From an uncultured bacterium (lineage in GTDB: Bacteria; UBP7; UBA6624), in assembly GCA_964343345.1 (NCBI GenBank), contig CAYFJE010000002.1, forward strand, positions 1 to 38,478: a stretch of DNA of 38,478 nucleotides. The letters are read 5' to 3'. Of this stretch, positions 1 to 14,429 are shown in pieces (position 1 is the first letter of the stretch; each line of letters begins with the position of its first letter). Made by a program: the position numbers and the translations under genes. The notes under the pieces were generated by a model, which was given only the letters and a program-made list of their open reading frames with translations, was not told where the DNA came from and searched no databases.

Positions 1-932
1 CCGAGCCAACCCCCGAGCCAACACCCGAGCCAAGAAAAAACATCCAAGGCTCGCCTCAAAAGACCAAAGATATTAGGACAAGCCCTGCTGTTAGAAGGTA
101 TTCTCAAGAAAACGAAATCGACCTAACTTCAATCACCGGATCTGGACCAAACGGAAGAATCCAAATGAAAGACGTCTTGTCTTTTAAAAAGCCAAAAATA
201 TCTAAACTGGATACAAAATCTCCAAACAACACAGAAACAAGACAACCTATCAACAGTTCAATGGCTGCAATGGCAAAACATATGGTCAATTCAGTTTCAA
301 CGAGCCCACATTTTTTAATTGTTGACGAGGCTGATATGAGCGAAACTCTTGCTGTGTATAGAAATATGAAAGAAAAACTCAAAGAAAAGGGCGCAAGATT
401 GACCTTGATGAGTTTTTTTGTTAGAGCGGCAGCACAAGCACTCAAAGACTTTCCAAGGATGAACGTTTCTATTGACGGAGAAGAGTTAGTTACTAAAAAT
501 TACAGGAACATTGGGATGGCTGCAAGTGTGGGGGAAAGCTTAATTGTTCCAGTTATTAAAAATGCAGATTTTTTCAATCTTGAAAATCTTGCATTGGAGA
601 TTAACAGACTTGCCACTGCAGCACAAGAAAACAAATTGACAATGCAGGACATTACTGGAGGCACATTCACCATAACCAATGCTGGAATGTTTGGAGGACC
701 GCTGATGTCCGCACCGATAATCAACCAGCCAGAAGCGGGCATTTTAGGGATACACACAGTAAAAGAAAGAGCTGTTGTTGTAGACGGCAATGTCGTTGTT
801 AAACCAATGGTTTACATCTCTTTGTCAAGTGACCACAGGATGGTTGATGGTGTTCTTGCTGTAAGGTTTTTGTGCAGATTTAAAGAACTTCTTGAACACC
901 CAGGCCTTTTGGCTACAGGTCCAATTTCGTGA
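1..932 (+). CDS. 2-oxoacid dehydrogenase E2 component (dihydrolipoamide acyltransferase), 5'-partial; possibly SucB-type
   Basis: Frame +3 is open from the window edge (codons from nt 3). The translation gives an EPTPEPTPEP linker, then a peripheral-subunit-binding motif SPAVRRYSQENEIDLTSITGSGPNGRIQMKDV. The acyltransferase catalytic domain follows, with TFTITNAGMFGG, PIINQPEAGILGIH and the active-site DHRMVDG. It sits directly upstream of lpdA. Confidence 0.9.
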   Translation, partial: EPTPEPTPEPRKNIQGSPQKTKDIRTSPAVRRYSQENEIDLTSITGSGPNGRIQMKDVLSFKKPKISKLDTKSPNNTETRQPINSSMAAMAKHMVNSVSTSPHFLIVDEADMSETLAVYRNMKEKLKEKGARLTLMSFFVRAAAQALKDFPRMNVSIDGEELVTKNYRNIGMAASVGESLIVPVIKNADFFNLENLALEINRLATAAQENKLTMQDITGGTFTITNAGMFGGPLMSAPIINQPEAGILGIHTVKERAVVVDGNVVVKPMVYISLSSDHRMVDGVLAVRFLCRFKELLEHPGLLATGPIS

Positions 933-2305
933 AATACGACCTTGTTATTGTAGGAGCAGGTCCAGGCGGATATGTTTGTGCGATCAGGGCAGCTCAGCTT
1001 GGTTTGAAGGTTGCAGTTGTGGAAAAAGAAAGAGCAGGAGGAACTTGTTTAAATGTAGGGTGCATACCATCAAAAGCACTTTTAGATTCAACGGAGATAT
1101 TTTCAGAAGTTCAAGAAAACAACGAACACGGCATTGAAGCAAAAAATTTAAAAATAAATTGGAAAACCTTACAGCAAAGAAGGGAAGGGATAGTCGAAAA
1201 ACTAACCTCTGGTGTTGAATTTCTTCTTGCCAAATCAAAAATAGATTATTTCAAAGGCTGTGCCCAGGTCAAATCTCGTCACACCGTGATTGTGGGCAGA
1301 AACAACCTCGCAACAAAGAATGTTGTTTTGGCAACAGGTTCAACACCGATAGAGATACCCTTTTTACCTTTTGACGGATTACAAATAATCAATTCAACAG
1401 AAGCCCTTTCACAACCAAATATACCAAAAGAAATGGTTGTTATAGGTGGAGGGTATATTGGTTTGGAGATGGCAAGTGTTTATAACAGAGTAGGGACAAA
1501 AGTGACTGTAGTCGAAATGATGAACAGCATTGTCCCCTTGATGGACCCAGAGATCAGTAAACAGCTTAGGAAATCTTTAAAAAAGCAAGGCATCAAATTC
1601 AAAACATCAACCAAGGTAACAGGATCTAAAAAAACTAAAACCAAAATCATATTGAATGTTGAAAAAAACGGAAAAAAAGAGAAACAAACAACAGAACAAG
1701 TCCTTGTTGCTGTTGGAAGAAAGCCTAATGACGGCAACATTAATCTCAATGCTTTAGGGATAAAAAGAAACGAAAGGGGTTTTGTTGTTGTTGATGAAAA
1801 ACTGGAAACATCTCAAGAAGGGATTTATGCAATAGGAGATTTGGTTCCAGGACCAATGCTCGCACACAAAGCAAGTGAAGAAGGTGTTGTGGTTGCTGAA
1901 AGAGTTGCTGGTAAAAAAACAATACTTAATTACAGTTTGATACCATCAGTCGTTTACACACACCCAGAAGGTGCTTCTATTGGAAAAAACACACTTGAAC
2001 TCCAAAAAGCAGGCATAGAATTCAATACAGGTATGTTTCCATTTTCAGCATCCGGAAGAGCCATGGCTATCGGCTGTACAGAGGGATTTGTTAAGGTTTT
2101 GTCTGACAAAAAAACAGATACGGTTTTGGGAGTGCATATATTAGGGCCAAAAGCTTCCGAATTAATCGGAGAGGCCGCAATGGTCATGGGTTTCTGCGGA
2201 ACTGCTGAAGATGTTGGTGTTTTTATCCACGCTCATCCAACATTAAGCGAAGCTTTAAAAGAGGCCTCTCTTGAAGCTTCTGGACATGGAGCAATCCATA
2301 CTTAA
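929..2305 (+). CDS. lpdA: dihydrolipoyl dehydrogenase (E3)
   Basis: GTG start overlaps the E2 stop (GTGA). It has the FAD motif VIVGAGPGGY and the redox-active disulfide GGTCLNVGCIPSK. It also has the NAD motif VVIGGGYIGLE and the C-terminal HAHPTLSE interface motif. Confidence 0.95.
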   Translation: MKYDLVIVGAGPGGYVCAIRAAQLGLKVAVVEKERAGGTCLNVGCIPSKALLDSTEIFSEVQENNEHGIEAKNLKINWKTLQQRREGIVEKLTSGVEFLLAKSKIDYFKGCAQVKSRHTVIVGRNNLATKNVVLATGSTPIEIPFLPFDGLQIINSTEALSQPNIPKEMVVIGGGYIGLEMASVYNRVGTKVTVVEMMNSIVPLMDPEISKQLRKSLKKQGIKFKTSTKVTGSKKTKTKIILNVEKNGKKEKQTTEQVLVAVGRKPNDGNINLNALGIKRNERGFVVVDEKLETSQEGIYAIGDLVPGPMLAHKASEEGVVVAERVAGKKTILNYSLIPSVVYTHPEGASIGKNTLELQKAGIEFNTGMFPFSASGRAMAIGCTEGFVKVLSDKKTDTVLGVHILGPKASELIGEAAMVMGFCGTAEDVGVFIHAHPTLSEALKEASLEASGHGAIHT

Positions 2306-2504: not shown

Positions 2505-3215
2505 ATGGAAGACAAAAAAATGTCTTTGTCCGAACATGTTTCAGATTTACAAAAAACAATTTTAAGAAGTTTAGTTTTCTGGATATCAGCTTCTGCCTTT
2601 CTTTCTTTTTTCCATGAATTCCTTTTAAAACACTTACAAGAACCATTAAAACAAGTAGGAATAGATTCACTAGTTGTTTTATCCCCGCAAGAAGGCTTTC
2701 TTATCCCCATCAAATTAGTTTTAATGTGCGGTTTTATAGTTGCCTCACCGTTAATTGTTCGTGAAATTGCTCTTTTTGCATGGCCTGCTCTAAAAAAAAC
2801 AGAAAGAAAGACTTTTCAAATTTTTGTGATTCCAGCTTTTCTAATCGCAATCCTAGGCGCTTTTTTTTGCTGGGAAGTTCTAATTCCTGTTTCTGTTGGT
2901 TTTCTTTTCAAAACAACAACTTCAAATCAATTAGATCCAACATGGACACTTCAACACTGGTTCAATTTTATCCAGTCAATGATGCTTGCTGCAGTTGTTG
3001 CATTTCAACTTCCAATAGTAATGGGAATTCTTGCAAAATTAAGGTTAATAACTTCCAAAATAGTTAAAAAAAACGGTCCTTATGCAATTGTTTTTCTTTT
3101 AATAATTTCAGGTTTTATCACTCCACCAGATGTTGTTACCCAGGTTATTATTGCCATACCCTTGATAGCTCTTTTTTACCTCAGTGTTTTCATAGTGAAA
3201 ATAAACGAAGGCTAA
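2505..3215 (+). CDS. tatC: twin-arginine translocase subunit TatC
   Basis: The N-terminus MSLSEHVSDLQKTILRSL matches the TatC HxxELRxR-type start. The protein is polytopic with about six hydrophobic segments and sits next to tatA. The start could be the internal ATG at 2520. Confidence 0.9.
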   Translation: MEDKKMSLSEHVSDLQKTILRSLVFWISASAFLSFFHEFLLKHLQEPLKQVGIDSLVVLSPQEGFLIPIKLVLMCGFIVASPLIVREIALFAWPALKKTERKTFQIFVIPAFLIAILGAFFCWEVLIPVSVGFLFKTTTSNQLDPTWTLQHWFNFIQSMMLAAVVAFQLPIVMGILAKLRLITSKIVKKNGPYAIVFLLIISGFITPPDVVTQVIIAIPLIALFYLSVFIVKINEG

Positions 3216-3286: not shown

Positions 3287-5611
3287 ATGGCAAGAATTGG
3301 TGTTTTTCTTAGCGAAGAGGGTAAAAGCCTACACCCATTAGACCTAAAGGCAATTTCTGACAAGCTCATTAAGAACGTTCAGGAAGTAAGTAACGTGTTT
3401 ATACACGAGGACCTTAATACCATAGAAGGCCTAGAGGCGATGGAGAGGCAGATAAAGGAACAAAACATCGGTTATGTTGTTATTGGTTGCGGATCTGTCG
3501 ACAAAAGAGAGGAGACCATTAGGACAACACTTAAAAAAGCAGGAATAAACGAATATCTTTTAGAGGTCGTGAATTTAAAAGAAATGGTTGCAAGCGTTCA
3601 TAACGATGAGCCTGAAAAAGCTAACGAGAAAGCGTTCCACCTAATACAAACAGCTGTAATGAAAGCCGAAAAAGGTAAACCGCTCAACGAAACACCAATG
3701 AGGGTAGAACAACAGGTTTTAGTTGTTGGCGGAGGTGTTGCAGGAATGTCCGCCTCTTTAAGAATTGCCGACGCCGGATACAGTGTTGTTTTGGTAGAAA
3801 AGGCACCTGCTCTTGGAGGGCGTGTTGCACTTTTGAAAAACCTTTGGCCAAAATTGGAAGAGGCGGAGGACTTGATGAGAAACCTTTCTATAAGGTGCCA
3901 CCAACACGAAAATATTGTTTTGTATGACTACTCCGAAGTTAAATCAGTTTCAGGAGTTAGAGGGGATTTTGATATTGAGATTTCAAAAAAACCCAGGTAT
4001 GTTGACAGCCAAAAAATAGATAATTTTGAAAAAATAACAGCAGAACTAACACAAGATTTTCCAAACAAGTACGGACCAAGCAATTCTTCAGCAAAAGTTT
4101 TATATCAACCATATCCAGGATGTGTTCCGCCGTTGTTTTTGATTGATCCAGAGCACATAAATCATCCAGAGGTAAAAAAATTAATCACACTTGTTCCAGA
4201 CGGAACTGTTGACACGTCAGAAAAAGAAAAAATTGTTCATGAAAAGGTCGGAGCAATCATTATGGCTTTCGGAGCACAGATGATGGATGTTTCAAAACTC
4301 ACAAACCTGACCTCAGCAAAAAACAAAAATGTTGTTACAGCCATGCATTTTGAATCAAACACACAGGCGGAAGAGGATTCCGAAGCCGTTCTCTGGGTTG
4401 TAGATGCTGGAAGCAATGATCCAAAAAGAGGGGTTCCTTATGCTTCAGAAGTTCCACTCATGACATCTGTCAAACAGGCTATCTCTGTTAAAAAATCTTC
4501 AAAAGACAAAACAAGAACAGTGGTAATCTATTCAGACAGACGATCAAGAACAAAAGGGTATGAAGAGTTTTTAAAAACTGCTGAACAAAAATACAAAATC
4601 GAGATGATTAGAGGGGCGGTTTCAAAAGTAACATCTCAAACGAATGGTCTTTCTGTAAGTTTTCACAATTTAATCCAAGGAGAAGAGCAGCAGATTTCAG
4701 CATCAAAAGTTGTTTTGGCTACAGAAATATCTCCATCTCCAGATACAAAAAATCTTGCAGAAATTATGGATATAGGTTGCGATAATTCAGGATTCCTCTC
4801 AGAGACCCACGCTTCCCTAGACCCTTGCTCAACGAGCAATTCCGGAGTTTTTGTTTGCGGTGACTGTGCATCTCCTGGAGATATTCGCGCTGCTGTTTTG
4901 ACAGCTGAGTCAGCGGTTGCTAAAGCTTTGGCAGTTCTTGGTAAAAAAACAGGAGAGCCATATAGGCTTAAGCAAAAAGATGATAAATTAGCTAGATTCG
5001 ATAATTCTGCACAAACCGTTTCCCCTGAAAGTTTTCAAAAAAACGAAGAAGGAGGAATGAGTTACACACGACTAAATACCGTTTTTGGAAAAACAGAAAG
5101 TGGAGCATCGGTTCCAGCATCTCCGACAAGAAATATCGAATTGCATGGGTGGGAGTTGGCGAAATCAATTGCTGAAATTGAAAACATATGGAGCAATCAA
5201 GTGGAAAATTCTTCTTGGGAGCCAAAAATAACAGGGTTTGCTTCTCAACATGGGGGCTATCCACTTTTGGAGACACTCGGAAGGGAGGAAATCTCATATT
5301 CCCCGTGCTATAGGTTTTTACGTATAAGATCAACAGCTCATCTAGACCCCCTTCTCGTCTTGAAAAGTTTTTTCAATGGAGCCGACGGAGTCTTTATTGT
5401 TGGGGGGCCCTTAGGAAGGGGAAAATTCCATACTGACAATTATCTTGCGAAAAGAAGGTTTAAAGCTCTTGAAGGAGTTTTGGATGCTGGAGGTATAGAG
5501 TCAGAAAGAGTGAAGATTCTTTTTATGGACTCTCACCAGGTTGACGAGGTAGCGCAACATTTGAAAGATTTTCACAACACACTTTCAGACTTGGGGCCAT
5601 TGGGTATTTGA
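3287..5611 (+). CDS. HdrA-like FAD flavoprotein fused to a C-terminal MvhD/FlpD-like domain, lacking the canonical Fe-S ligand cysteines
   Basis: GGAGGA RBS lies upstream. The Rossmann FAD motif VLVVGGGVAGMSASLRIADAGYSVVLVEKAPALGGR is at about nt 3728. The HdrA-like C-terminal FAD segment GVFVCGDCASPGDIRAAVLTAESAVAKA is present. Residues about 646-772 follow the MvhD pattern (GADGVFIVGG, ERVKILFMDS). Family-conserved Cys positions are substituted (see findings). Confidence 0.7.
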   Translation: MARIGVFLSEEGKSLHPLDLKAISDKLIKNVQEVSNVFIHEDLNTIEGLEAMERQIKEQNIGYVVIGCGSVDKREETIRTTLKKAGINEYLLEVVNLKEMVASVHNDEPEKANEKAFHLIQTAVMKAEKGKPLNETPMRVEQQVLVVGGGVAGMSASLRIADAGYSVVLVEKAPALGGRVALLKNLWPKLEEAEDLMRNLSIRCHQHENIVLYDYSEVKSVSGVRGDFDIEISKKPRYVDSQKIDNFEKITAELTQDFPNKYGPSNSSAKVLYQPYPGCVPPLFLIDPEHINHPEVKKLITLVPDGTVDTSEKEKIVHEKVGAIIMAFGAQMMDVSKLTNLTSAKNKNVVTAMHFESNTQAEEDSEAVLWVVDAGSNDPKRGVPYASEVPLMTSVKQAISVKKSSKDKTRTVVIYSDRRSRTKGYEEFLKTAEQKYKIEMIRGAVSKVTSQTNGLSVSFHNLIQGEEQQISASKVVLATEISPSPDTKNLAEIMDIGCDNSGFLSETHASLDPCSTSNSGVFVCGDCASPGDIRAAVLTAESAVAKALAVLGKKTGEPYRLKQKDDKLARFDNSAQTVSPESFQKNEEGGMSYTRLNTVFGKTESGASVPASPTRNIELHGWELAKSIAEIENIWSNQVENSSWEPKITGFASQHGGYPLLETLGREEISYSPCYRFLRIRSTAHLDPLLVLKSFFNGADGVFIVGGPLGRGKFHTDNYLAKRRFKALEGVLDAGGIESERVKILFMDSHQVDEVAQHLKDFHNTLSDLGPLGI

Positions 5612-5614
5612 TAA

Positions 5615-6508
5615 ATGAATGAAATGAGAATAACAATACAAAGAGAAGCCAGAAGGCTTTTGCAACTCGAACGAGTGAGTGTTGTTATAGGTTATGAAAC
5701 AGGGCCGTATCCAGGAACGACATCTCCTTGTTTTGCTTTTACCCCAGATGATGCTCAAAGAATAGTTTTTAATAGTTTTTCAGCAATGAATTTAGCTGTT
5801 TATTTGCCAGGAATTACTGGAAATGTTGGAATAGTGGCAACTCCAGCAACTGTAAGATCTATCAAAGAGCTCGAAAAAGACGGCCTTGTAAAGAGACAAA
5901 ATATTCATATTATTGGCGTTAGGTTTCCAGGGATACTAGATCCAAGAAAGCTTTCCGTGAATCGAGAGAACGAAAACACACTTTCTGTAAATGAACACCC
6001 CGAGGCTCTTTGGGATTGGGCCCTACATGACCTTTACGAGGTTCCATCTGAATACGATATCCTTGTTGAGCCAAGATGGATGAGCGAGTTGGACAAGCAA
6101 AAGAAATTGCAGAAGCCGATTTTGTCTCGTACTAATGTTGAACGACTTCAACAAATGACACATAAAGAAAGAAGGGCTTATTGGTTGCAATATTTTGAAG
6201 AAAACAAACACCCTGACCACAACAAAAACCTTTTTCCTTCAACATATGCTGGAGGAGACCATTTGGAGAAATTCAAATACATAAAGTCAACTTACAGTTC
6301 TAGTGAGTTGTTTTATGAACATCTTTCTTGGGTTTACCAATCTATGGGCCGTGCATCTGGTTTTGATTTGTCCGACTTGACCGAAGAGCCAACAAAGATA
6401 CCCCTCTCCACCCTTAGAGCATGGGCTGCAAGAGAGTTTAGGAGAAACTTTGATTACAGGCCGGGTTTTGACGACACAAACCCCTTATTGAAGAAGGAAA
6501 GTTTATGA
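5615..6508 (+). CDS. uncharacterised operon protein; N-terminal half weakly FrhB/FdhB-like (F420 hydrogenase/dehydrogenase beta family), Cys-depleted
   Basis: It starts 3 nt after the upstream stop, and its end overlaps the next gene (ATGA). NVGIVATPATVRSIKELEK resembles the FrhB-type VAVVGTPCQIxAxRKL segment with Cys replaced by Ala. The whole 297-aa protein has only one Cys. I do not recognise the C-terminal half. Confidence 0.35.
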   Translation: MNEMRITIQREARRLLQLERVSVVIGYETGPYPGTTSPCFAFTPDDAQRIVFNSFSAMNLAVYLPGITGNVGIVATPATVRSIKELEKDGLVKRQNIHIIGVRFPGILDPRKLSVNRENENTLSVNEHPEALWDWALHDLYEVPSEYDILVEPRWMSELDKQKKLQKPILSRTNVERLQQMTHKERRAYWLQYFEENKHPDHNKNLFPSTYAGGDHLEKFKYIKSTYSSSELFYEHLSWVYQSMGRASGFDLSDLTEEPTKIPLSTLRAWAAREFRRNFDYRPGFDDTNPLLKKESL

Positions 6509-7533
6509 CAATGAATAATTATGTTTTGTCAAAAGCCAAACTCAAATATTGGCTTGAGGATATAAGAAGGCGTAATGAGCTTTGGGCTCCCGTTGGAGAG
6601 AGAGATTCAGTGAGTTATTTAAAGAATCCAAAAGGCGAAGATGTAGCAACAGAATTCACAAATAGTTTAGATTGTCCTAAATACATCTTTTCTCCACAGC
6701 AAGATCCAATTTGTAATTTTGAAATCAAGGGAAGAGGAGAGGTTGTTGTGGAGGAAATTAAACCCGATACAACACCAAGAGTTGTTTTTGGACTTAGGCC
6801 ACCAGATGTTAGAGGTCTTGAAATCATGGACGCATATCTTCTAAAAGACAAGGTTGATGAAAGATACAAGGCAAAAAGAGACAATACGACAGTAGTTTCT
6901 TTAGGCTATCACAATCCCGCACCGTGTTGTTTTGCTGAGGCTGTTGGTGTCGATTTGTTTCCAAAAAAAGGTTCGGATATTCTTTTAACAGATCTTGGAA
7001 GAAGCTACTATGTTGAAACTCTTTCTGAAGAAGGAGAAAATCTTGTTTCCGAACACTTCAACGAAGCAGACGACATTGTTCGAAACGAAGCATGGGATAT
7101 CCAAAAAAGATCGAAAGGAACAACAGACTTCGATTTACATTTAGACAAATGGAAAGATTTTACAGACAGTGAAATATACACATTGCCTTATTGGGACGAG
7201 ATATATTTAGGGGTAATAGCTGACTCTGTAGCTACACGTTATTTTTATTCTGGAACATATTTTAAAATTGTTGATGTGTCTAAAGGTACTCGTGGTACAA
7301 GATATAAAACATGGACAACAATGTATTCACCCAACTTTTCTGTCTTGCCCAACGGGTATGATTACAAACCAAGCTTAAAAGAAAAATTCAAGGATTGGAT
7401 ATTAGAAATGTTTCACTTTTTTCCAAAACGACACGGCTTTATTGGGTGTTCCGGAGCACATAGATGTATTGCTGGAATGACAACAAAACATGACATCAGA
7501 AAAATAATTGCAAACGTGGATTTTGGGACATGA
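6505..7533 (+). CDS. AsrA/HydB-like (anaerobic sulfite reductase subunit A / sulfhydrogenase beta family) protein without ferredoxin Cys motifs
   Basis: Collinear similarity to AsrA as I remember it. [21 protein letters not shown] matches [29 protein letters not shown] matches [39 protein letters not shown] matches [45 protein letters not shown] matches MCVGCGRCDDRCP. It has 4-nt overlaps with both neighbours. Confidence 0.65.
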   Translation: [342 protein letters not shown]

Positions 7534-8315
7534 ACCTCCAACCTCAAGTTGTAAATCTAACTGAAAGTACCAAAGAAGGTGCTATTGGTTCCGTTTCTTT
7601 TTCTTGCTCAAAGGAATTATCTGCAGGTCAGGTTTTTAAAATCGGAACTTTTGGCATTGGTGAGACATCTGCATGGGTAACGGATTGGGAAGAGGGAATA
7701 GCAACCGTATCATTTTTAGAAAACAATTCAGTCACACACAAAATCATGCTTTTGCCAAAAGGAGAATGTATAACTTTGAGAGGACCTTTCGGAAACGGAT
7801 TCCCATTTGCCAAAAAAAACTACAAAAAGATTCTCTTGATAAACAAAGATGATGGCATTTTGTCGCAGAAAAAACTCATAAATGACCTTATTCAAACAGG
7901 TTCAGACATCACACTTTTTCACTTCACATCTTCTCCAAAAAATCCAGTCATGAAGAGCTCTTTAGAAAAAACATGTAACAACGAAGAGTCTCCTGTTGAT
8001 GGTCAAATTTTTGACTTGACCAAAAAAGGACCCCAAGACCTGAATTCTTTTATTAGCAAACAGCTAGAACAACATAATTTTTCGGCCGTTGATGCCGTTG
8101 CCATTTCAGGAGATGAAAATTTTCAGCAAGCTATATCTAAAACCCTAGAACAAACAAACATTAAAGACAAAGATATATACATTCTTTTTAATCGCAACTT
8201 CACATCAGGCATGGGTTGGTCAAACCAGGACTTATACGGAGTAACTAACATCTGGAAAGATGGGCCGGTATTCACTCTTTCGGAGGTTCGAAGGTTCCCG
8301 GGAATTTTTATTTAG
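7530..8315 (+). CDS. AsrB/HydG-like FNR-fold protein lacking the NAD(P)H loop and the [2Fe-2S] cysteines
   Basis: AGQVFKIGTFGIGETSAWV...ITLRGPFGNGFPF matches the AsrB/PyrK-type GQFVxVxxPxxGExPxS...LRGxxGNGF pattern. LLINKDDGILS replaces LLVVAGGTGVAP. NFTSGMGWSNQDLYGVTNIWKDGPVF replaces [25 protein letters not shown]. Confidence 0.65.
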   Translation: MNLQPQVVNLTESTKEGAIGSVSFSCSKELSAGQVFKIGTFGIGETSAWVTDWEEGIATVSFLENNSVTHKIMLLPKGECITLRGPFGNGFPFAKKNYKKILLINKDDGILSQKKLINDLIQTGSDITLFHFTSSPKNPVMKSSLEKTCNNEESPVDGQIFDLTKKGPQDLNSFISKQLEQHNFSAVDAVAISGDENFQQAISKTLEQTNIKDKDIYILFNRNFTSGMGWSNQDLYGVTNIWKDGPVFTLSEVRRFPGIFI

Positions 8316-9018
8316 ATTTTAAATTTTTGACTAAAAACAACCCAAGGTCCGAGTCTAAATCTTCAGCCCTGAAACCTTCGGGGATTTTTTTAATTGCAGA
8401 TTCTGAAACTATATTTTTTAGTAAGTTTTTTACCTTTTTTCTTCGTTGGGAAAACATGATTTTGTTTAACATCAAGTAATTTTCAGCATGTTTAAAATCC
8501 TCCTTTTTCCCTTTGTTTAACAGGGTTAAAACAGCACTTTCTACCTTTGGTCGAGGAAAAAAACATTCTGATGACAATATTTTTTGAATTTTGCATGAGT
8601 AAAAATGCTGCAGGGGTCCTGAAAGAGCACCAAATGATTTTGTGCCAGAATTCGAACAAACTCGTTCAGCCACCTCTTTTTGAACGGTAAAAACAGCATG
8701 ATTTATTTTCTGAGGCCATTGTGCAACAGTCCACAGAATCCTTCCTGAAAGATAGTAGGGAAGGTTGCCGACAAGAGATCCTGAAGATGTCTCGTTTTCT
8801 GGGTTCCACGAGCGGATGTCTTTTTTTACAACCTCTTTTCCAAACCTTTGAGCAAGAAGAGAGTGAAGTGTTTCATCGATTTCAAACACACTAAACTCCT
8901 TCCTTTTTTTGATTAGCTCGGTCAAAAAACCCAAACCACCACCTATTTCAATTGTCCAGTTTGAAAGATGCTTATCAAGAAGGTTTTTTATGTAAATCAA
9001 TTCAGAACCCTTTATCAT
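8308..9018 (-). CDS. rsmA: 16S rRNA (adenine1518/1519-N6)-dimethyltransferase RsmA/KsgA
   Basis: SAM motif EIGGGLGFLT, catalytic GNLPYY, FFPRPKVESAV and a C-terminal helical domain are present. The coordinates use the first ATG. The conserved KKxxGQNF motif is encoded upstream (9019-9054), so the real start is probably a non-canonical codon between 9052 and 9105. Confidence 0.9.
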   Translation of the reverse strand: MIKGSELIYIKNLLDKHLSNWTIEIGGGLGFLTELIKKRKEFSVFEIDETLHSLLAQRFGKEVVKKDIRSWNPENETSSGSLVGNLPYYLSGRILWTVAQWPQKINHAVFTVQKEVAERVCSNSGTKSFGALSGPLQHFYSCKIQKILSSECFFPRPKVESAVLTLLNKGKKEDFKHAENYLMLNKIMFSQRRKKVKNLLKNIVSESAIKKIPEGFRAEDLDSDLGLFLVKNLKSK

Positions 9019-10414: not shown

Positions 10415-11539
10415 TTGAGTTCAGCAGAAGCAGGAAGAATTGTTGCAAGAGCAGTCCATGAATATTCTCCGAAATCAAAAACAACTATAAAAAATTTCGC
10501 TGATGGTGGAGAAGGCACTGTTCAAGCTATTCTGGAAAATTATGAATACACCGAACACAAGGTTGAAACAGTTGGAGCCAATGGCATACCTATAGTTGCT
10601 AGTTGGTTTTTTCTAAAAGAAGAACAAATAGCATTATTTGAAATGGCATCAGTTGTCGGGCTTCCCCTCCTCACGGTTGAAGATTTGAATCCTGAGAAAA
10701 CAAGTACATTGGGAATTGCGCCAATCATTCTTGACATTTTAAATAAAAAAGTCAAAAAAGTATGGCTCGCTGCTGGAGGGACCTCAACCCTTGATGCAGG
10801 GCTCGGGCTTCTTAAAGGGATGGGAGTTCGTTTTAAAAACAAGGAATATCCTAAAAATTTAATCGAAATTAAAGGTTCTGAAGTTTTGGATTTTTCTAAA
10901 GTAGAAACAAGCAATAAAAACCTCCAACCTTACCCAGAAAAAGGCAATTGCCTGTTCCCAAGCGTGATTTTTGATATAATTGCTGATGTTCATGCTCCCT
11001 TGCTTGGTAGCAAAGGGGCTGTTTTTGCTTTTGGCAAACAAAAAGGAGCCACCCCAAAAAATACAGCTCTTCTAGAGAGGGGGATGGTTAATTTTTCCAA
11101 TGTCATTCAGGGAAAAACAAAAGATCCATCCTTTTTAAAATTGGGCGGATTGGGAGCAGCAGGAGGGATTGCCTTAGGGCTTTCTTTGTTGTTTAAAGTG
11201 AATATAAAAAAAGGAGCTGATTTTATTGTGGCAAAAACTGGAATAAACAAAACGATAGACAATTGTGACATCCTGATAACAGGAGAAGGGCAATTCAACT
11301 CTCAAAGCAAGCAGGGAAAAGGGCCTTGGGTTCTTGCATCTTTAGCAAAAGAAAGAAATATCCCAGCTTTGATTATTAGCGGGTTAAAGATGAGGAAAGA
11401 GGATAAGGTAGGGGATTTTCATTTTTTGGAAACCTCGAACTCTTCTCCAAAAAGCAAAACAGAAGCAAAGGAAAATCTTTTCAACGCAACAACAAAATGG
11501 CTTAAAGAAAACGAGGTGAATAATAATGAAACAAAATAA
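10415..11539 (+). CDS. glycerate kinase
   Basis: GGEGT motif (FADGGEGTVQAI) and C-terminal ILITGEGQFNSQSKQGKGPWVLASLAKERNIPALIISG are present. The coordinate is the ORF-track TTG. The family N-terminus KKFLIALDSFKGTL is encoded upstream in the same frame (10376-10417), so the true start lies between 10343 and 10390 at a non-ATG/GTG/TTG codon. Confidence 0.88.
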   Translation: MSSAEAGRIVARAVHEYSPKSKTTIKNFADGGEGTVQAILENYEYTEHKVETVGANGIPIVASWFFLKEEQIALFEMASVVGLPLLTVEDLNPEKTSTLGIAPIILDILNKKVKKVWLAAGGTSTLDAGLGLLKGMGVRFKNKEYPKNLIEIKGSEVLDFSKVETSNKNLQPYPEKGNCLFPSVIFDIIADVHAPLLGSKGAVFAFGKQKGATPKNTALLERGMVNFSNVIQGKTKDPSFLKLGGLGAAGGIALGLSLLFKVNIKKGADFIVAKTGINKTIDNCDILITGEGQFNSQSKQGKGPWVLASLAKERNIPALIISGLKMRKEDKVGDFHFLETSNSSPKSKTEAKENLFNATTKWLKENEVNNNETK

Positions 11540-14429
11540 AGTAATTGACATGGGTTTAATGATCACAGAAACACTTGCAGGGATTGCTGAAAAACCCTCA
11601 TCAGACGGTGCAACTTTGAAAGAAATCGAAAAAGGCCTAAAGAAAGGTATTGAAAAAGAGTTTAAATCTCCAAAAAGCAAAAGCGAAAAAGAACACTTTT
11701 TGCTTCAGGTCGATATCTTTATTAAGAATCATGCCAACAAGTTTTTAAAAAATTGTTCTTTCATAAAGGAAGAAAATGGAAAATGGTTTCTGAGGCCAGA
11801 GAAGCTCAGGGCACACGTGTTCGCTACTGAGATTTTAGAAGAAGGCGGAAATTTTATTCTGGAGTCAAAATTAAGGAGTCTTGTTGCAAAAAAAATGAAT
11901 CAAAAAGTTAGTGAAACTAAACTTTACTTAGAGATTGATGACAACTTTGCAAACACCAGTTTTCTCAATACCGACCACCAGGTTGGAAGAGGCAAGGTGT
12001 GGGGTCTTGTAAATTGGTGGCTAATCAACAACATGGCAATCGAGGTTATAGAGTCGGAGGGGCCAATGAAAGAGAAGCAGCTCATTTCTCGTGTAATGGA
12101 AAAGCAGATGCTTGCTGAAACCAAAATTCCCATCTTTTCTCCAGGAATCGACAAGAGGTTTTTGTCAGAATCAGGGAACTTATGGGATGTCGTTAAGCCA
12201 AAAAAGAAAAGTCTCGAATCTCCTAAAACTGGACGTTTAGAAATAAAGATTCGAGAAGAAATAACTGAAAAAATAGAAAGACTTTTAGAAAATCAAGAAT
12301 CTGATAAAAGTTTTTCAAGAGAGGAAATCACTACCGCATTAATAGGTGCGGCCAAAAGTTCTCGAAGTTCTCATTATGGAGAAATTCTTGATGAAATATT
12401 ACAGTGCTTTGAATCAAAAAAAACAATTACAAAAGTTCGTTTTGAACCAAGAAATCCTTCCTGGATAAAGTCAGAAAGTTTGCCAAAAATAAAAATCAAG
12501 AACCTATCTTCTATTTTTCCATTAGCATATCCAGAAGCCAACCTCGTTGGCGATGACATTTTTGATGAAACTCTTTACGAAAATCTTTCTAATCCTGCAC
12601 TTTATTGGCTGGATGGAGATTTTTCAGAAAAAGGATTTCCAGAAGTTGAACCACTTTTGATATTGACTTTTAATGATTTTGTTGACGAAGGGGTTAATTA
12701 CATTTCACAACCTCTATCCAATGCAATACAGGCCTCCCTTTCGTCATCGGGAGAGTGGGGAGAGTTCACCCTCGAAACACCTAACGATGAAGCATTGTCA
12801 GTTTTAATAAATTTCAAAAATCAAACACTTTCTGGAATTGGAGGATGGATTAATGGTCATGCACAACCTGGGGATGTTTATAGTTTTGAATACCTGGGAT
12901 CTTCAAGATTTAGACTTGCAAAAGCAAAAGAAATAAAAACAGTTTCGCTAGATGACGATGAGCTCGAAAGGCTCTTGATGCTCCAGGGATCCAGTAAGTT
13001 GCATATAAAAGATTTAATCATAAAGGTGTTAAAAAACCATTCAGGGGGCCTTACTTTCAGCGGCCTGTTCAACAGAATCATGTTTATTCAGAGAGTCTCA
13101 AGAAGGGCTTTGATGAGCGAGTTAACAAAATTTTACTGTTTTGAAATAAAAGATGAAAAATGGAGATATCATGAAAAACGAGTCGATTTTGGCGAAAAGT
13201 TTTCTGCAAGTGCCTGGCCAATAGCCGGTGTTCAGACAGGTTGCTGGATTGTCAGAGAGTCTATGGCTCCAAAAAATGGAGATTTTGTAAACTTTAACAA
13301 TTCCAAAATAAAAACAAACGATCTTTTTGCAGTCTTGAATGAAAAAGATGAATTAACTTCTGTTTTTAGGGTTCAAGTTAAAGCAAGAAAATTCAATATT
13401 CAAAATGTAAGTTCTTTTGACCGTGTCCCTTTGACAGATTTCAAGTTACCTCAGGGAAAATTAAAAGAAATTGAAAATTCATTATTTTGCGACATTAATG
13501 AACTGGCTGAAAAACATCTTTTAGATTCTGAAGTTTATGCTGGAATCAAAAAGGCTTTTGCTGAATTTGAGCCAGAAGCGAATGTAAACCAAGAGGTCAC
13601 CAGAAGCCTCGAAGACCTGGAAGGGTTACTTGAAGATTCAGGTTCTGTCAGCCCGTTTGGAGGACTTTCTTGGCAATTGCAGCAAAATTTCAACTGGAAA
13701 GAATTCCAGAAAGTTTTAGATTCAAAAATTTACTCTCAAGAGCACGAAAATAGGTTAGATGCAGACAAGTTCTCGCATTGGTTGTCAAAAAGACCAATTT
13801 CGTGGGATGGAGATTCAATTATCTATCCTTCAGGTCATGGGGAGTTGCCTTCAGGCATTTTGGAATCCATTGTGTTGATTATGAAAAATGCTGACTATAC
13901 GATCACAGAACAATCTCTAAATATCAGAACCGCATTCGGAAAAGATTTTATTTTCGATTGGGAACGGTTGATTTCTGATAAAAGAAGGATTGCAAAAATT
14001 GTTAATTCCGAAGACAGTTTTCAACTTGTGGAATTTCTTACCGGTTGGTTTAGGCGTATGGTTAAAATTGTTGAACCTAGAAAATTAGAAAATGTTGTTA
14101 CAAAACTTTCTCTAAACTTAAAAGGAATCGGATCAATCGATACTGAAAGCATTGACTTGCCTGAATTCATCGAAGGGCAAAGAAAATCTTTGAAATCTTC
14201 TTCTCTTGGTGCCGAAAAACATATTAAATATTCCACCTTTTTTGCAGATTTTAGAGGTTTTTCAAAAGCCAAAATTAAAAAAACTTTAAGTCTAATTTCT
14301 TCAAATATCGAAGAAGGAGGAATCCTTATCATTCTTACTTCTGAGGATCAAAAAATACAATTAAGTGAAGGAAGCCTGGAAGAGCAGATGTCAATGGGCC
14401 TAGTCGTTGCAAGGTCTTATATTTTTTAA
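11526..14429 (+). CDS. large (967 aa) hypothetical protein, no family recognised
   Basis: Uninterrupted 2.9-kb ORF. GAGGTG RBS at 11513-11518 lies 7 nt before the ATG, and the start overlaps the glycerate kinase end by 14 nt. The protein is charged and Lys/Glu-rich, with several short helical modules that look winged-helix-like. Confidence 0.6.
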   Translation: MKQNKVIDMGLMITETLAGIAEKPSSDGATLKEIEKGLKKGIEKEFKSPKSKSEKEHFLLQVDIFIKNHANKFLKNCSFIKEENGKWFLRPEKLRAHVFATEILEEGGNFILESKLRSLVAKKMNQKVSETKLYLEIDDNFANTSFLNTDHQVGRGKVWGLVNWWLINNMAIEVIESEGPMKEKQLISRVMEKQMLAETKIPIFSPGIDKRFLSESGNLWDVVKPKKKSLESPKTGRLEIKIREEITEKIERLLENQESDKSFSREEITTALIGAAKSSRSSHYGEILDEILQCFESKKTITKVRFEPRNPSWIKSESLPKIKIKNLSSIFPLAYPEANLVGDDIFDETLYENLSNPALYWLDGDFSEKGFPEVEPLLILTFNDFVDEGVNYISQPLSNAIQASLSSSGEWGEFTLETPNDEALSVLINFKNQTLSGIGGWINGHAQPGDVYSFEYLGSSRFRLAKAKEIKTVSLDDDELERLLMLQGSSKLHIKDLIIKVLKNHSGGLTFSGLFNRIMFIQRVSRRALMSELTKFYCFEIKDEKWRYHEKRVDFGEKFSASAWPIAGVQTGCWIVRESMAPKNGDFVNFNNSKIKTNDLFAVLNEKDELTSVFRVQVKARKFNIQNVSSFDRVPLTDFKLPQGKLKEIENSLFCDINELAEKHLLDSEVYAGIKKAFAEFEPEANVNQEVTRSLEDLEGLLEDSGSVSPFGGLSWQLQQNFNWKEFQKVLDSKIYSQEHENRLDADKFSHWLSKRPISWDGDSIIYPSGHGELPSGILESIVLIMKNADYTITEQSLNIRTAFGKDFIFDWERLISDKRRIAKIVNSEDSFQLVEFLTGWFRRMVKIVEPRKLENVVTKLSLNLKGIGSIDTESIDLPEFIEGQRKSLKSSSLGAEKHIKYSTFFADFRGFSKAKIKKTLSLISSNIEEGGILIILTSEDQKIQLSEGSLEEQMSMGLVVARSYIF

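What the first reader, a model, noticed from the sequence alone, without database searches (positions are those of the whole stretch)
3287..5611. HdrA-MvhD fusion protein with all recognisable cluster-binding segments present but Cys-free
Each segment is compared with HdrA/MvhD family patterns recalled from memory:
- IGVFLSEEGKSL versus IGVFVCHCGxNI.
- VVIGCGSVDKRE versus VVAACSPRxHE.
- NLKEMVASVH versus NIREQCSWVH.
- PRYVDSQKIDNFEKITAELT versus PRYVDxxKCTGCGxCxxxCP (inserted ferredoxin domain).
- C-terminal domain ITGFASQHGGY, IRSTAHLD and VGGPLGRGKFHTDNY versus FxCNWCSYxGAD, CSGR and GCHxGDCHYxxGN of MvhD.

The surrounding non-ligand residues are conserved well enough to align, including GADGVFIVGG, ERVKILFMDS and VGAIIMAFGA. 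The substitutions therefore look selective for the metal ligands. A roughly 90-residue Ser/Glu/Lys-rich linker (about residues 555-645, nt 4950-5220) joins the two parts.
Basis: partly seen in the sequence, partly recalled or inferred. Interest (0 to 1): 0.7.

Follow-up and report, generated by a model that had tools for sequence, protein, structure and literature searches.

The report
Iron-sulfur-stripped HdrA/Flx-like complex operon
An uncultured marine bacterium keeps, under strong purifying selection, a four-gene operon descended from an iron-sulfur-rich electron-bifurcating complex in which nearly all ancestral metal-cluster ligands have been replaced and the protein folds are preserved; such a case has apparently not been described before.

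Summary
ORF 3287-5611 (774 aa) is a full-length HdrA-MvhD fusion: it matches the HdrA2 profile end to end, and its AF2 model superposes on HdrA 5odc_A with TM 0.82. None of the 26 conserved HdrA Cys columns or the 5 MvhD ligand columns is Cys. By contrast, 46 of 78 conserved non-Cys columns are kept, including every FAD motif (p about 1e-8).

The three downstream genes are stripped in the same way. They are an FrhB/FdhB-C plus di-cluster protein, a sulfhydrogenase-beta-like protein and a gamma-like protein. Together with MvhD they form an Flx-like module.

All four genes show dN/dS of 0.03-0.08. HdrA* diverges no faster than the housekeeping enzyme LpdA.

Sister lineages (99/100 bootstrap) carry the same tatC-linked operon but still have 3 HdrA clusters and intact partner clusters, which indicates stepwise loss. 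Among 1.84 billion representative proteins, only this clade has no HdrA clusters.

LipA in this lineage keeps its Cys motifs, so the organism still makes Fe-S clusters.

The most likely function is an FAD-only flavoprotein held in a cofactor-less scaffold. Wired electron transfer and bifurcation are excluded. The actual function is unknown.

The parts
3287..5611 (+). hdrA*-mvhD* fusion gene (774 aa). It has the complete HdrA + MvhD domain architecture, keeps the FAD motifs, and has no Cys at any Fe-S ligand column.
3287..3676 (+). N-terminal HdrA domain (residues 1-130). The four conserved Cys are replaced by S9, E11, N44 and G69, and the C/D column by V101.
   Evidence: dN/dS 0.019
3677..3994 (+). 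First part of the thioredoxin-reductase-like FAD domain (residues 131-236). GGGVAG (148-153), E171 and LGG (176-178) are kept. The DCxxC pair has become E192/D195.
3995..4213 (+). Remnant of the inserted 2x[4Fe-4S] ferredoxin domain (residues 237-309). All 8 ligand Cys are replaced by hydrophobic residues (I, F, I, L, I, V, L, V).
   Evidence: dN/dS 0.086; pLDDT 78-95
4214..4951 (+). Second part of the FAD domain (residues 310-555). The four Cys of the cluster next to the flavin (MtHdrA C386/C399/C403/C404) have become D373/A386/P390/L391. E356, K396 (= MtHdrA K409) and the G525-D526 / P530-x-D532 motif are kept.
   Evidence: PMC12054007 for K409/E356
4952..5221 (+). All 8 ligand Cys are replaced (A, D, A, S, K, S, S, S).
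   Evidence: (dN/dS 0.035)
5222..5611 (+). MvhD/FlpD-like domain (residues 646-774). The [2Fe-2S] Cys are replaced (S653, G656, S682, G707, G712). It is the most conserved domain within the clade.
5615..6508 (+). Gene X (297 aa), a stripped member of the FrhB/FdhB-C + 2x[4Fe-4S] family (FlxC-like by position and size). Both CxxCxxCxxxCP motifs and the other conserved Cys are gone. One clade-specific invariant Cys remains (C39).
6505..7533 (+). Sulfhydrogenase-beta/AsrA-like gene (342 aa, FlxB-like). Ferredoxin motif 1 is lost entirely and motif 2 is reduced to CSGAHRC. Four invariant Cys remain (PPCCFAE and GCSGAHRC).
7530..8315 (+). Sulfhydrogenase-gamma/AsrB/PyrK-like gene (261 aa, FlxA-like). 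The [2Fe-2S] motif CxxxxCxxC...C is lost, and the GGxGxxP NAD(P) motif is degraded to NKDDGILS.
8367..8383 (+). Terminator-like hairpin followed by a T-run, 52 nt after the stop of the last gene. It is the likely end of the operon.
   Evidence: consensus scan only
2505..3215 (+). tatC, directly upstream. This linkage is conserved in every stripped and partly stripped relative examined. Whether it has functional meaning is unknown.

Best explanation
SHOWN. ORF 3287-5611 is a real HdrA-MvhD fusion maintained by selection. It is the first gene of a four-gene operon: HdrA::MvhD, then an FrhB-C/di-cluster-like protein X, then a sulfhydrogenase-beta-like protein, then a gamma-like protein. This is an Flx-type module attached to HdrA.

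At least 10 ancestral [4Fe-4S] sites and 2 [2Fe-2S] sites have had their ligands replaced while every domain was kept. The count is 6 [4Fe-4S] in HdrA, 1 [2Fe-2S] in MvhD, at least 2 [4Fe-4S] in X, 2 [4Fe-4S] in beta and 1 [2Fe-2S] in gamma. The NAD(P) motif of the gamma subunit is also gone.

The loss was stepwise. Sister lineages with the same tatC-linked operon still have 3 HdrA clusters and intact partner clusters.

INFERRED. With no relay clusters, the complex cannot pass electrons between subunits, so it cannot carry out flavin-based electron bifurcation or NADH:ferredoxin/heterodisulfide chemistry. The only cofactor site that looks intact is the FAD site of HdrA*: GGGVAG, E171, LGG, GD...PxD, plus the E356/K409-equivalent pair.

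The most likely mechanism is therefore that HdrA* works as a flavin-only enzyme. Its FAD would react directly with diffusible partners, namely a hydride donor and a small acceptor. There is a precedent: HdrA2-type proteins oxidise F420H2 at HdrA without a dedicated dehydrogenase subunit. The other three proteins and the ex-ferredoxin domains would persist as a cofactor-free structural scaffold that keeps the ancestral assembly.
For: Homology and fold:
- HdrA2 profile match end to end, 409 bits.
- PDB HdrA E 2e-74 and MvhD E 2e-20.
- AF2 mean pLDDT 82.6; Foldseek top hit 5odc_A with TM 0.82 over 661 columns.

Ligand loss:
- 0/26 conserved Cys columns kept against 46/78 conserved non-Cys columns, p 1.6e-8, with all FAD-motif columns kept.
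- Partner subunits are stripped at ferredoxin, PyrK-type and NAD motifs without indels.
- Curated-family scores decay stepwise from L015 to L013 to the window.

Selection:
- dN/dS is 0.033, 0.033, 0.027 and 0.082 for the four genes at dS of about 0.5.
- dN/dS is 0.02-0.09 for each HdrA domain, including the ferredoxin remnants.
- HdrA* is 52 % identical between sub-lineages, the same as housekeeping LpdA at 52-53 %.
- Gene order and start/stop overlaps are conserved in at least 5 independent assemblies.

Stepwise origin:
- L013, L014 and L016 carry tatC-hdrA-mvhD-X-hydB-hydG with partial loss.
- The sister relationship has 99/100 bootstrap support with ligand columns excluded.

Specificity:
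- LipA in the same lineage keeps both of its Cys motifs.

Literature:
- HdrA carries 1 FAD and six [4Fe-4S], and MvhD one [2Fe-2S] (PMC5861303).
- K409/E356 and direct F420H2 use by type Ia HdrA are described in PMC12054007.
Against: - No biochemical evidence exists for FAD binding. It is inferred from motifs only.
- Several columns that are nearly invariant in canonical HdrA near the flavin/cluster region have changed: R377 to N/E/D, K510 to S/A, G422 to T, F187 to W. The flavin environment is therefore altered.
- No candidate substrate or donor is suggested by the neighbouring genes.
- The beta-like subunit keeps four invariant Cys plus a His, which could form one metal site, so the whole complex may not be Fe-S-free.
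- dN/dS is reliable only for one unsaturated pair.
- The Flx assignment rests on domain families, sizes and gene order, not on direct comparison with D. vulgaris Flx sequences.
Confidence: 0.5

Rival explanations
1. Entirely non-catalytic pseudoenzyme complex. All four proteins, HdrA* included, have lost redox function and are kept for a structural, regulatory or chaperone-like role. This would resemble the non-catalytic FhcB or molybdopterin-protein subunits that stabilise other complexes.
For: - Every testable cofactor site except FAD is gone.
- Some conserved residues near the flavin have changed: R377, K510, G422.
- Non-catalytic structural subunits in Hdr-type complexes have a precedent (PMC12054007).
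- Purifying selection is strong and uniform over all domains, including the ex-ferredoxin remnants, as expected for an assembly held together by many interfaces.
Against: - The FAD fingerprint columns (G148, G150, G153, E171, G177, G178, G525, P530, D532) and the K409/E356 equivalents are invariant across a clade that is only 52 % identical overall. That is hard to explain if no flavin is bound.
Confidence: 0.3
2. The complex still transfers electrons. It would use metal centres with non-Cys ligands (Asp, Glu, Ser, His), the four invariant Cys of the beta-like subunit, or aromatic-residue hopping. It would then be an oxygen-tolerant or iron-sparing version of the ancestral enzyme.
For: - Some replacements are potential ligands: S9/E11, E192/D195, D373, D572, S605/S608/S612.
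- The beta-like subunit keeps CC...CxxxHxC in all members.
- The motif 'RYFYSGTYF' replaces a ferredoxin motif.
Against: - All eight inserted-ferredoxin ligands are aliphatic or aromatic hydrophobic residues, and the cluster next to the flavin is replaced by D/A/P/L.
- No site keeps more than one or two plausible ligands.
- The NAD(P) motif of the presumed entry subunit is destroyed.
- From my own knowledge, no precedent exists for a [4Fe-4S] cluster with no Cys ligand at all.
Confidence: 0.06
3. Decaying pseudogenes, or an assembly or annotation artefact with no function.
For: - Cofactor sites are lost on a massive scale.
- Scores fall far below curated family cut-offs: 409 against 1100, 67 against 690, 50 against 395.
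Against: - The ORFs are intact and of conserved length in at least 6 loci from independent samples and in dozens of cluster members.
- dN/dS is 0.03-0.08.
- Divergence equals that of LpdA.
- Start/stop overlaps are conserved.
Confidence: 0.02
4. Not an HdrA or MvhD relative at all, but a generic FAD-dependent pyridine-nucleotide disulfide oxidoreductase with a chance resemblance.
For: Pfam reports only generic FAD/NAD(P) Rossmann families for the N-terminal two thirds of the protein.
Against: - The HdrA2 profile match runs end to end.
- The match to PDB HdrA has E 2e-74 over residues 41-553.
- TM is 0.82 to the whole of HdrA, against about 0.5-0.6 for thioredoxin reductases.
- The protein has no second GxGxxG NAD(P)H motif and no redox-active CxxC at the thioredoxin-reductase position.
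- It shares synteny with bona fide hdrA-mvhD operons.
Confidence: 0.01

Closest known systems
HdrA2-type (type Ia) HdrA-MvhD fusion proteins, e.g. Methanosarcina acetivorans HdrA2 of HdrA2B2C2 (NCBIfam NF040770)
   Same: - The domain order is the same over the whole length: N-terminal domain, FAD/thioredoxin-reductase domain with inserted ferredoxin, C-terminal ferredoxin, MvhD.
- This is the best curated-profile match, covering residues 3-772 against profile positions 1-774 of 777.
- The FAD motifs and the K409/E356 equivalents are present.
- Many members of this group already lack the MvhD [2Fe-2S] Cys (7 of the 9 compared).
   Different: - The score is 409 bits against a cut-off of 1100.
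- None of the six [4Fe-4S] sites has its Cys.
- The gene is not followed by hdrC/hdrB (Fer4 + CCG domains) but by three Flx-like genes.
- The host is a marine bacterium with a lipoamide-dependent 2-oxoacid dehydrogenase complex, not a methanogen or an archaeon.
FlxABCD-HdrABC NADH dehydrogenase/heterodisulfide reductase of Desulfovibrio vulgaris and other anaerobes (Ramos et al. 2015, as cited in PMC10920352 and PMC5861303)
   Same: - The subunit set and sizes match: FlxA about 31 kDa and gamma-like, FlxB about 39 kDa and beta-like, FlxC about 300 aa with two clusters, FlxD = MvhD, plus HdrA.
- An intact relative of the module lies next to hdrCBA in an Armatimonadota genome (L015).
   Different: - There is no hdrB or hdrC.
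- The gene order is reversed, and MvhD is fused to HdrA instead of to FlxC.
- All Fe-S motifs and the NAD(P) motif are lost.
Partly stripped tatC-linked hdrA-mvhD-X-hydB-hydG operons (L013 'bacterium JZ-2024 1', L014, L016/P0050, P0229)
   Same: - The gene order and the tatC neighbour are the same.
- They form the sister group of the stripped clade (99/100 bootstrap).
- They share derived losses: the N-terminal cluster, the DCxxC pair, and the flavin-adjacent cluster, with identical replacements D/A/P/L in L013.
- Protein X of these operons is the closest relative of window X (about 35 % identity; 181-194 bits against 112 or less for all others).
   Different: - They retain 1 inserted-ferredoxin cluster and 2 C-terminal ferredoxin clusters in HdrA.
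- They retain both ferredoxin motifs in X and in beta, and the [2Fe-2S] motif in gamma.
- hdrA and mvhD are separate genes.
sHdrA of sulfur oxidisers (Hyphomicrobium denitrificans, PDB 6tjr), the minimal 'A0' HdrA
   Same: - It has the thioredoxin-reductase-like FAD core (Foldseek TM 0.82 to the target; phmmer E 5e-13).
- It is found in aerobes.
- It is an example of HdrA with fewer clusters.
   Different: - sHdrA reached its reduced state by lacking whole domains, and it still binds one [4Fe-4S] cluster (own knowledge). Here all domains are kept and only the ligands are removed.
- The window has no sHdrB/C or LbpA genes. The nearby lipoylation genes in the related loci (L001, L004, L005, L007; upstream of the window's first base) belong to an ordinary 2-oxoacid dehydrogenase cluster.
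Non-catalytic relics inside redox complexes (FhcB; the Cys-less molybdopterin subunit in type II Hdr gene clusters, PMC12054007)
   Same: A subunit has lost its cofactor ligand, and the literature proposes that it is kept as a structural component.
   Different: Those cases involve one cofactor site in one subunit of an otherwise active complex. Here at least 12 sites across all four gene products are gone.

Membership tests
HdrA (heterodisulfide reductase subunit A; NCBIfam NF040770 / NF041778 / NF041891) | Full-length sequence and fold homology to HdrA | tested here: met
   HdrA2 profile match 3-772 to 1-774 of 777, E 3.5e-122. 5odc_A E 1.9e-74. Foldseek TM 0.82 over 661 columns.
HdrA (heterodisulfide reductase subunit A; NCBIfam NF040770 / NF041778 / NF041891) | Score above the curated family cut-off | tested here: not met
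   409 bits against 1100, 260 against 1400, 275 against 1300.
HdrA (heterodisulfide reductase subunit A; NCBIfam NF040770 / NF041778 / NF041891) | FAD-binding fingerprint (GxGxxG, acidic residue after beta2, LGG, C-terminal GD...PxD) | tested here: met
   G148, G150, G153, E171, G177, G178, G525, P530 and D532 are invariant in the clade and in canonical sequences. This is sequence evidence only; cofactor binding was not measured.
HdrA (heterodisulfide reductase subunit A; NCBIfam NF040770 / NF041778 / NF041891) | Six [4Fe-4S] clusters ligated by conserved Cys (PMC5861303) | tested here: not met
   0 of 26 conserved Cys columns are retained in the window protein. P0005 and P0006 keep one relic Cys.
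HdrA (heterodisulfide reductase subunit A; NCBIfam NF040770 / NF041778 / NF041891) | K409 / E356 pair proposed to mark bifurcating HdrA (PMC12054007) | tested here: met
   K396 aligns to MtHdrA K409 and E356 aligns to E356 in the phmmer alignment. Both are invariant in the clade.
HdrA (heterodisulfide reductase subunit A; NCBIfam NF040770 / NF041778 / NF041891) | Partnership with HdrB (CCG domains) and HdrC | tested here: not met
   No CCG-domain or HdrC-like gene occurs in the operon or within 10 kb in any clade locus. The rest of the genome could not be searched.
MvhD / FlpD (Pfam PF02662) | Domain match above the gathering score | tested here: met
   82 bits against 22.3, residues 648-770 to profile positions 1-123 of 123. 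5odc_D E 2.1e-20.
MvhD / FlpD (Pfam PF02662) | [2Fe-2S] cluster Cys | tested here: not met
   The columns that are Cys in P0029, P0119 and L015 are S653, G656, S682, G707 and G712 in the window.
Flx (FlxABCD) NADH-oxidising module | Subunit set: gamma-like flavoprotein (FlxA), beta-like Fe-S protein (FlxB), di-cluster protein (FlxC), MvhD (FlxD), encoded next to hdrA | tested here: met
   Beta-like: 9nez_B E 1.4e-15. Gamma-like: 9nez_C E 4.7e-8. X belongs to the FrhB_FdhB_C + Fer4 family by profile search. Sizes match those in PMC10920352. The match is by architecture, not by direct comparison with D. vulgaris sequences.
Flx (FlxABCD) NADH-oxidising module | NAD(P)H- and FAD-binding motifs in FlxA (GGxGxxP etc.) | tested here: not met
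   L015 has GGGIGMAP, L013 has AQNSGLVP, and the clade has NKDDGILS. The SSP segment is deleted. No Pfam NAD_binding_1 or FAD_binding_6 hit was found.
Flx (FlxABCD) NADH-oxidising module | Fe-S cluster motifs in FlxA, FlxB and FlxC | tested here: not met
   All CxxCxxCxxxCP motifs and the PyrK-type motif are replaced. Only C1 and C3 of one motif survive in the beta-like protein.
Flx (FlxABCD) NADH-oxidising module | Orthology to characterised D. vulgaris FlxA-D (DVU2399-2401) | not tested
   The D. vulgaris sequences were not retrievable with these tools.
sHdrA (sulfur-oxidiser Hdr-like, PDB 6tjr) | Minimal about 340-aa FAD core with one [4Fe-4S], encoded with sHdrB/C and LbpA | tested here: not met
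   The window protein is 774 aa with all accessory domains and no cluster Cys. No hdrB/C-like neighbours were found.
Low-Mr thioredoxin reductase / pyridine-nucleotide disulfide oxidoreductase | Second NAD(P)H Rossmann GxGxxG/A motif and a redox-active CxxC | tested here: not met
   The equivalent segment reads VVDAGSND. No CxxC occurs at the thioredoxin-reductase position. The only CxxC (C524-G-D-C527) sits in the C-terminal FAD motif and is absent from 2 of 7 clade members. Foldseek TM to thioredoxin reductases is about 0.5-0.6.

The most novel reading that the evidence does not exclude
This may be the first documented case in which an entire multi-subunit flavin-based electron-bifurcating machine has been converted, under continuous purifying selection, into a complex with essentially none of its ancestral metal sites and a new job. 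The ancestor had at least 10 [4Fe-4S] and 2 [2Fe-2S] clusters (about 44 Fe) across four gene products.

In this reading the descendant would be either an oxygen-tolerant, iron-sparing flavin-only redox enzyme or a structural or regulatory assembly. Living intermediates (3 clusters, then 2, then 0 in HdrA) would record the route. The most radical form of this reading is that the complex still performs a coupled redox reaction without Fe-S relays.
Probability: 0.15. Interest if true: 0.9.

Novelty: new variant of a known kind. Interest (0 to 1): 0.72.

Why it matters
HdrA-based complexes are regarded as ancient, cysteine-rich, strictly Fe-S-dependent and extremely oxygen-sensitive. The diversity known so far comes from adding or deleting whole cluster domains (PMC12054007, PMC5861303).

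This case differs in that every domain and every partner subunit is kept, and selection is as strong as on a housekeeping enzyme, yet nearly all ancestral metal ligands are removed. This has three consequences:

1. It provides a natural series of cluster-knock-out variants (full, partial, none) for asking which clusters the HdrA fold and assembly need.
2. It is a clear candidate for studying how large redox complexes are repurposed when a lineage moves into oxic, iron-poor sea water.
3. It is a warning for annotation. These genes are currently labelled 'hydrogenase iron-sulfur subunit' or 'heterodisulfide reductase subunit A'. Metabolic reconstructions would therefore wrongly infer bifurcation, hydrogen metabolism or heterodisulfide metabolism in these marine bacteria.

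Tried and rejected
- **Genome-wide Fe-S loss.** The gene at the lipA position in L004 had no precomputed Pfam hit. On rescanning it is a radical-SAM protein with a chimeric N-terminus, probably an assembly problem. LipA in L007 and L001 keeps both Cys motifs, and the aconitase-family gene is normal. Idea rejected.
- **Tat export of the complex**, suggested by the conserved tatC linkage. No subunit has a twin-arginine signal. The 'ARRLL' in X is part of a conserved N-terminal helix that is also present (as KK) in L015, with no hydrophobic region after it. Left as unexplained synteny.
- **Clade-specific Cys (C204, C514, C527) as a new redox-active disulfide.** C527 probably corresponds to the non-ligand Cys of the canonical 'GxC' motif, shifted by one column. 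No coordinates were available to test distances. Not pursued.
- **Taxonomy.** The genome-collection titles say only 'uncultured bacterium'. Cluster members carry no organism names. Paper and taxonomy look-ups for accessions gave nothing. LpdA homologues fall to about 53 % identity across scattered phyla outside the group itself. Unresolved.
- **First tree test.** It gave 0/100 support for clade + L013 + P0229 because P0050 had been left out of the tested group. Corrected.
- **PDB sequence search for X.** It found nothing significant.
- **Rfam scan of the window.** No hits.
- **Literature searches for a previously described Cys-free HdrA.** None found. One search failed on syntax, and a search for the sulfhydrogenase structure paper was unproductive.
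- **Promoter scan.** Fewer sites than in shuffled sequence, so uninformative.

Full report
**1. The observation**

The window contains an ORF at exactly 3287..5611 on the + strand. It is 774 aa long, starts with ATG and is preceded by a GGAGG Shine-Dalgarno sequence.

I aligned the ORF with six close relatives and nine canonical HdrA-MvhD fusion proteins (alignment A1). Every column that is Cys in 9 of 9 canonical sequences is non-Cys in 7 of 7 members of the window's clade.

I repeated the count against 40 canonical HdrA sequences:
- 0 of 26 conserved Cys columns are kept in the clade.
- 46 of 78 conserved non-Cys columns are kept in all clade members.
- The difference is significant (Fisher p = 1.6e-8).
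- The kept columns include the whole FAD fingerprint: G148/G150/G153, E171, G177/G178, G525, P530 and D532.

Two details need correcting:
- The protein is not Cys-free. It has 8 Cys, none at a ligand column.
- The 'Ser/Glu/Lys-rich linker' at residues 555-645 aligns without gaps to the C-terminal 2x[4Fe-4S] ferredoxin domain. The motif CxGCGxCxxxCPxxAI has become ESGASVPASPTRNIEL and is conserved throughout the clade.

**2. Family assignment**

- The NCBIfam HdrA2 model matches end to end (residues 3-772 against profile positions 1-774 of 777, E 3.5e-122). At 409 bits it is far below the 1100-bit cut-off.
- Pfam finds MvhD/FlpD at residues 648-770 (82 bits against 22.3) and no Fer4 family at all.
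- The solved HdrA of Methanothermococcus thermolithotrophicus (5odc_A) matches residues 41-553 (E 1.9e-74). Its MvhD (5odc_D) matches residues 642-772 (E 2.1e-20).
- That alignment shows K396 and E356 are the equivalents of MtHdrA K409 and E356. This is the pair proposed to mark bifurcating HdrA (PMC12054007).
- An AlphaFold2 model built from A1 has mean pLDDT 82.6 and pTM 0.73. Only four short segments fall below pLDDT 50, and both ex-ferredoxin regions have secondary structure.
- Foldseek places the model on 5odc_A with TM 0.82 over 661 columns. Thioredoxin reductases reach only about 0.5-0.6.

**3. The loss extends to the whole operon**

Three ORFs follow hdrA* with 4-bp overlaps or a 3-nt gap: 5615-6508 (297 aa, 'X'), 6505-7533 (342 aa) and 7530-8315 (261 aa). 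A terminator-like hairpin lies at 8367-8383.

- *The 342-aa protein* is a weak relative of sulfhydrogenase beta/AsrA (67 bits against a cut-off of 690; PDB 9nez_B E 1.4e-15).
- *The 261-aa protein* is a weak relative of sulfhydrogenase gamma/AsrB/PyrK (9nez_C E 4.7e-8).
- *X* has no Pfam, NCBIfam or PDB match. A profile of its clade finds about 35 proteins of about 315 aa that carry FrhB_FdhB_C plus a 2x[4Fe-4S] domain.

I aligned each protein with intact relatives from loci L013, L014 and L015:
- X has lost both CxxCxxCxxxCP motifs and five further conserved Cys.
- The beta-like protein has lost ferredoxin motif 1 completely and keeps only C1 and C3 of motif 2.
- The gamma-like protein has lost the PyrK-type [2Fe-2S] motif. 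Its GGxGxxP NAD(P) motif reads GGGIGMAP in L015, AQNSGLVP in L013 and NKDDGILS in the window.

By domain families, subunit sizes and position next to hdrA, this set corresponds to the Flx module (FlxA gamma-like, FlxB beta-like, FlxC, FlxD = MvhD) of FlxABCD-HdrABC systems (PMC10920352; PMC5861303). I could not compare directly with the D. vulgaris sequences.

**4. These are working genes, not wreckage**

- The same four genes, with the same lengths and overlaps, occur in independent assemblies: L001-L003, L004, L005/L006, L007 and L008.
- For the one pair with unsaturated synonymous divergence (L007/L008, dS about 0.5), dN/dS is 0.033, 0.033, 0.027 and 0.082 for the four genes.
- Within HdrA*, every domain is constrained: N-terminal 0.019, FAD 0.029, inserted-ferredoxin remnant 0.086, C-terminal ferredoxin remnant 0.035, MvhD 0.020.
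- The replacement residues are themselves conserved. All eight inserted-ferredoxin ligands became hydrophobic residues.
- HdrA* is 52 % identical between the window lineage and the L001 and L005 lineages. The housekeeping enzyme LpdA from the same contigs is 53 % and 52 % identical. So the stripped protein evolves no faster than a core enzyme.

**5. The loss is specific to this operon, and it was stepwise**

LipA in the same lineage keeps both of its cluster motifs, and the aconitase-family gene is normal. The organism therefore still assembles Fe-S clusters.

The nearest Cys-bearing relatives of X lead to three loci: L012/L013 ('bacterium JZ-2024 1'), L014 and L016 (P0050). They have the same string, tatC-hdrA-mvhD-X-hydB-hydG, but with hdrA and mvhD as separate genes. 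Their status is as follows:
- Their HdrA has already lost the N-terminal Cys, the DCxxC pair and all four Cys of the cluster next to the flavin. In L013 the replacements (D, A, P, L) are identical to those in the window.
- Their HdrA has also lost half of the inserted-ferredoxin ligands.
- They keep one inserted-ferredoxin cluster, both C-terminal ferredoxin clusters and all partner clusters.

A neighbour-joining tree on 538 core columns, with ligand columns removed, makes the stripped clade monophyletic (100/100). It places {L013, P0229, P0050} as its sister in 99 of 100 bootstraps. P0251 (only the C-terminal ferredoxin Cys left) and then P0287 branch next.

An Armatimonadota locus (L015) carries the fully equipped module next to hdrC and hdrB. 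Curated-family scores decay in the same order, from L015 to L013 to the window: beta-like 157, 140, 67 bits and gamma-like 249, 161, 50 bits.

**6. How rare is it?**

I ran an exhaustive HMM search with the clade profile against 1.84 billion representative proteins. It returned 9527 HdrA-like hits (1137 at E < 1e-30). The clade collapses into one full-length representative (1561 bits) plus one 398-aa Cys-free fragment (601 bits). Below the fragment the other HdrA-like hits follow in a steadily declining series from 522 bits.

Among the best 150 hits, only P0229 and P0251 are otherwise Cys-depleted, and both keep 8-12 ligand Cys.

The HdrA surveys I could read describe diversity through gain or loss of whole Fe-S domains and call HdrA 'cysteine rich'. 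None mentions a ligand-free form.

**7. What it probably does**

*Shown:* no complete ancestral Fe-S site remains in any subunit, and the NAD(P) entry motif is gone.

*Inferred:* electrons cannot be relayed between subunits. Flavin-based bifurcation and NADH:ferredoxin/heterodisulfide chemistry are therefore excluded.

The only cofactor site under evident conservation is the FAD site of HdrA*, together with the K409/E356 equivalents. My best explanation (confidence about 0.5) is a flavin-only enzyme whose FAD reacts directly with diffusible substrates. HdrA2-type proteins are reported to oxidise F420H2 at HdrA itself (PMC12054007). The ex-ferredoxin domains and the three partner proteins would be retained as a cofactor-free scaffold.

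The main rival (about 0.3) is a fully non-catalytic complex.

A surviving electron-transfer function through non-Cys ligands or through the four invariant Cys of the beta-like subunit cannot be strictly excluded, but it is unlikely (about 0.06).

Caveats:
- Several near-invariant residues around the flavin have changed: R377, K510, G422 and F187.
- The neighbours give no clue to a substrate.
- FAD binding is inferred from motifs only.

**8. Organism**

The window encodes an ordinary heterotroph's genes: 2-oxoacid dehydrogenase E2/E3, tatC, histidine utilisation, peptidases, Pst phosphate uptake and a Na+:solute symporter. Protein X is identical to a Tara Oceans gene, so this is a marine planktonic lineage.

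All records are labelled only 'bacterium'. LpdA has no relative above about 53 % identity outside its own group. The phylum could not be determined here.

**9. Verdict**

The finding is real, and its scope is larger than reported. The family (HdrA/MvhD/Flx) is known. The state is new: all domains kept, nearly all ancestral metal ligands removed across four gene products, under strong purifying selection, with living intermediates. It is best classed as a new variant of a known kind. It would interest specialists in Fe-S proteins and electron bifurcation, and it has practical consequences for annotation.

Noticed in passing
window 165-932 (and L004 6460-6813 / 6926-7693; L007 6262-6723 / 6880-7647): The 2-oxoacid dehydrogenase E2 gene is split in the window's sub-lineage. 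A separate 117-153 aa lipoyl-domain ORF is followed, after a gap of about 110-160 nt, by a 255-aa catalytic-domain ORF, and no E3-binding domain is detected. In the L001 and L005 lineages E2 is a single 414-444 aa protein with Biotin_lipoyl + E3_binding + catalytic domains. The split appears in three independent assemblies, so it is probably real.
   Followed up: partly
window 6505-7533 (residues ~141-142 and ~316-321): The stripped beta-like subunit keeps four invariant Cys and a His (PPCCFAE and GCSGAHRC) in all clade members. The CC pair is clade-specific and absent from L013 and L014. This could be a new metal or disulfide site.
   Followed up: partly
window 2505-3215 / 3287; L001 9327-10004 / 10001; L005 9336-10004 / 10001; L013 4903-5661 / 5627; L016 7262-7999 / 8001: tatC lies immediately upstream of hdrA, often overlapping it, in every stripped and partly stripped relative. 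No subunit has a recognisable twin-arginine signal, so the meaning of this conserved linkage is unknown.
   Followed up: partly
alignment A1 (P0040, P0043, P0045, P0046, P0053, P0071, P0075): Seven of nine otherwise fully Cys-equipped HdrA-MvhD fusions lack the MvhD [2Fe-2S] Cys. The two whose context was examined (P0043, P0053) are of the HdrA2 type, followed by hdrC and hdrB. A cluster-less MvhD domain is therefore common in this fusion class, independently of the stripped clade.
   Followed up: partly
window 11526-14429: A 967-aa ORF has no Pfam family. It is conserved in synteny after glycerate kinase in the 52 %-identity relatives (964 aa in L001, 955 aa in L002).
   Followed up: no
L004 495-1346 and 3231-4241: In this contig the 3-hydroxyacyl-CoA dehydrogenase gene is broken into 58-aa and 133-aa pieces. 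The lipA ORF carries a GatB_N-like N-terminal piece fused to a truncated radical-SAM domain. This is probably mis-assembly or local decay in that metagenome contig.
   Followed up: partly
window 8308-9018 (- strand) versus 7530-8315 (+ strand): The 3' ends of rsmA/ksgA and the last operon gene overlap convergently by 8 nt. The terminator-like hairpin for the operon (8367-8383) lies inside the rsmA coding region. The window's rsmA ORF (236 aa) is shorter than in relatives (257-291 aa).
   Followed up: no
window 929-2305 (LpdA) and the lineage as a whole: Outside its own uncultured group (78-86 % identity), LpdA drops straight to about 53 % identity, with hits scattered over Alphaproteobacteria, Bdellovibrionales, Planctomycetes and Acidobacteria. 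All public records of the lineage are labelled only 'bacterium'. It looks like a deep-branching, poorly characterised marine lineage.
   Followed up: partly
L013 9949-10797; L014 3663-4508: In the partly stripped sister lineages the gamma-like (FlxA-like) subunit has already lost the canonical GGxGxxP NAD(P) motif while keeping its [2Fe-2S] Cys. The electron donor of those intermediate complexes may therefore no longer be NAD(P)H.
   Followed up: no
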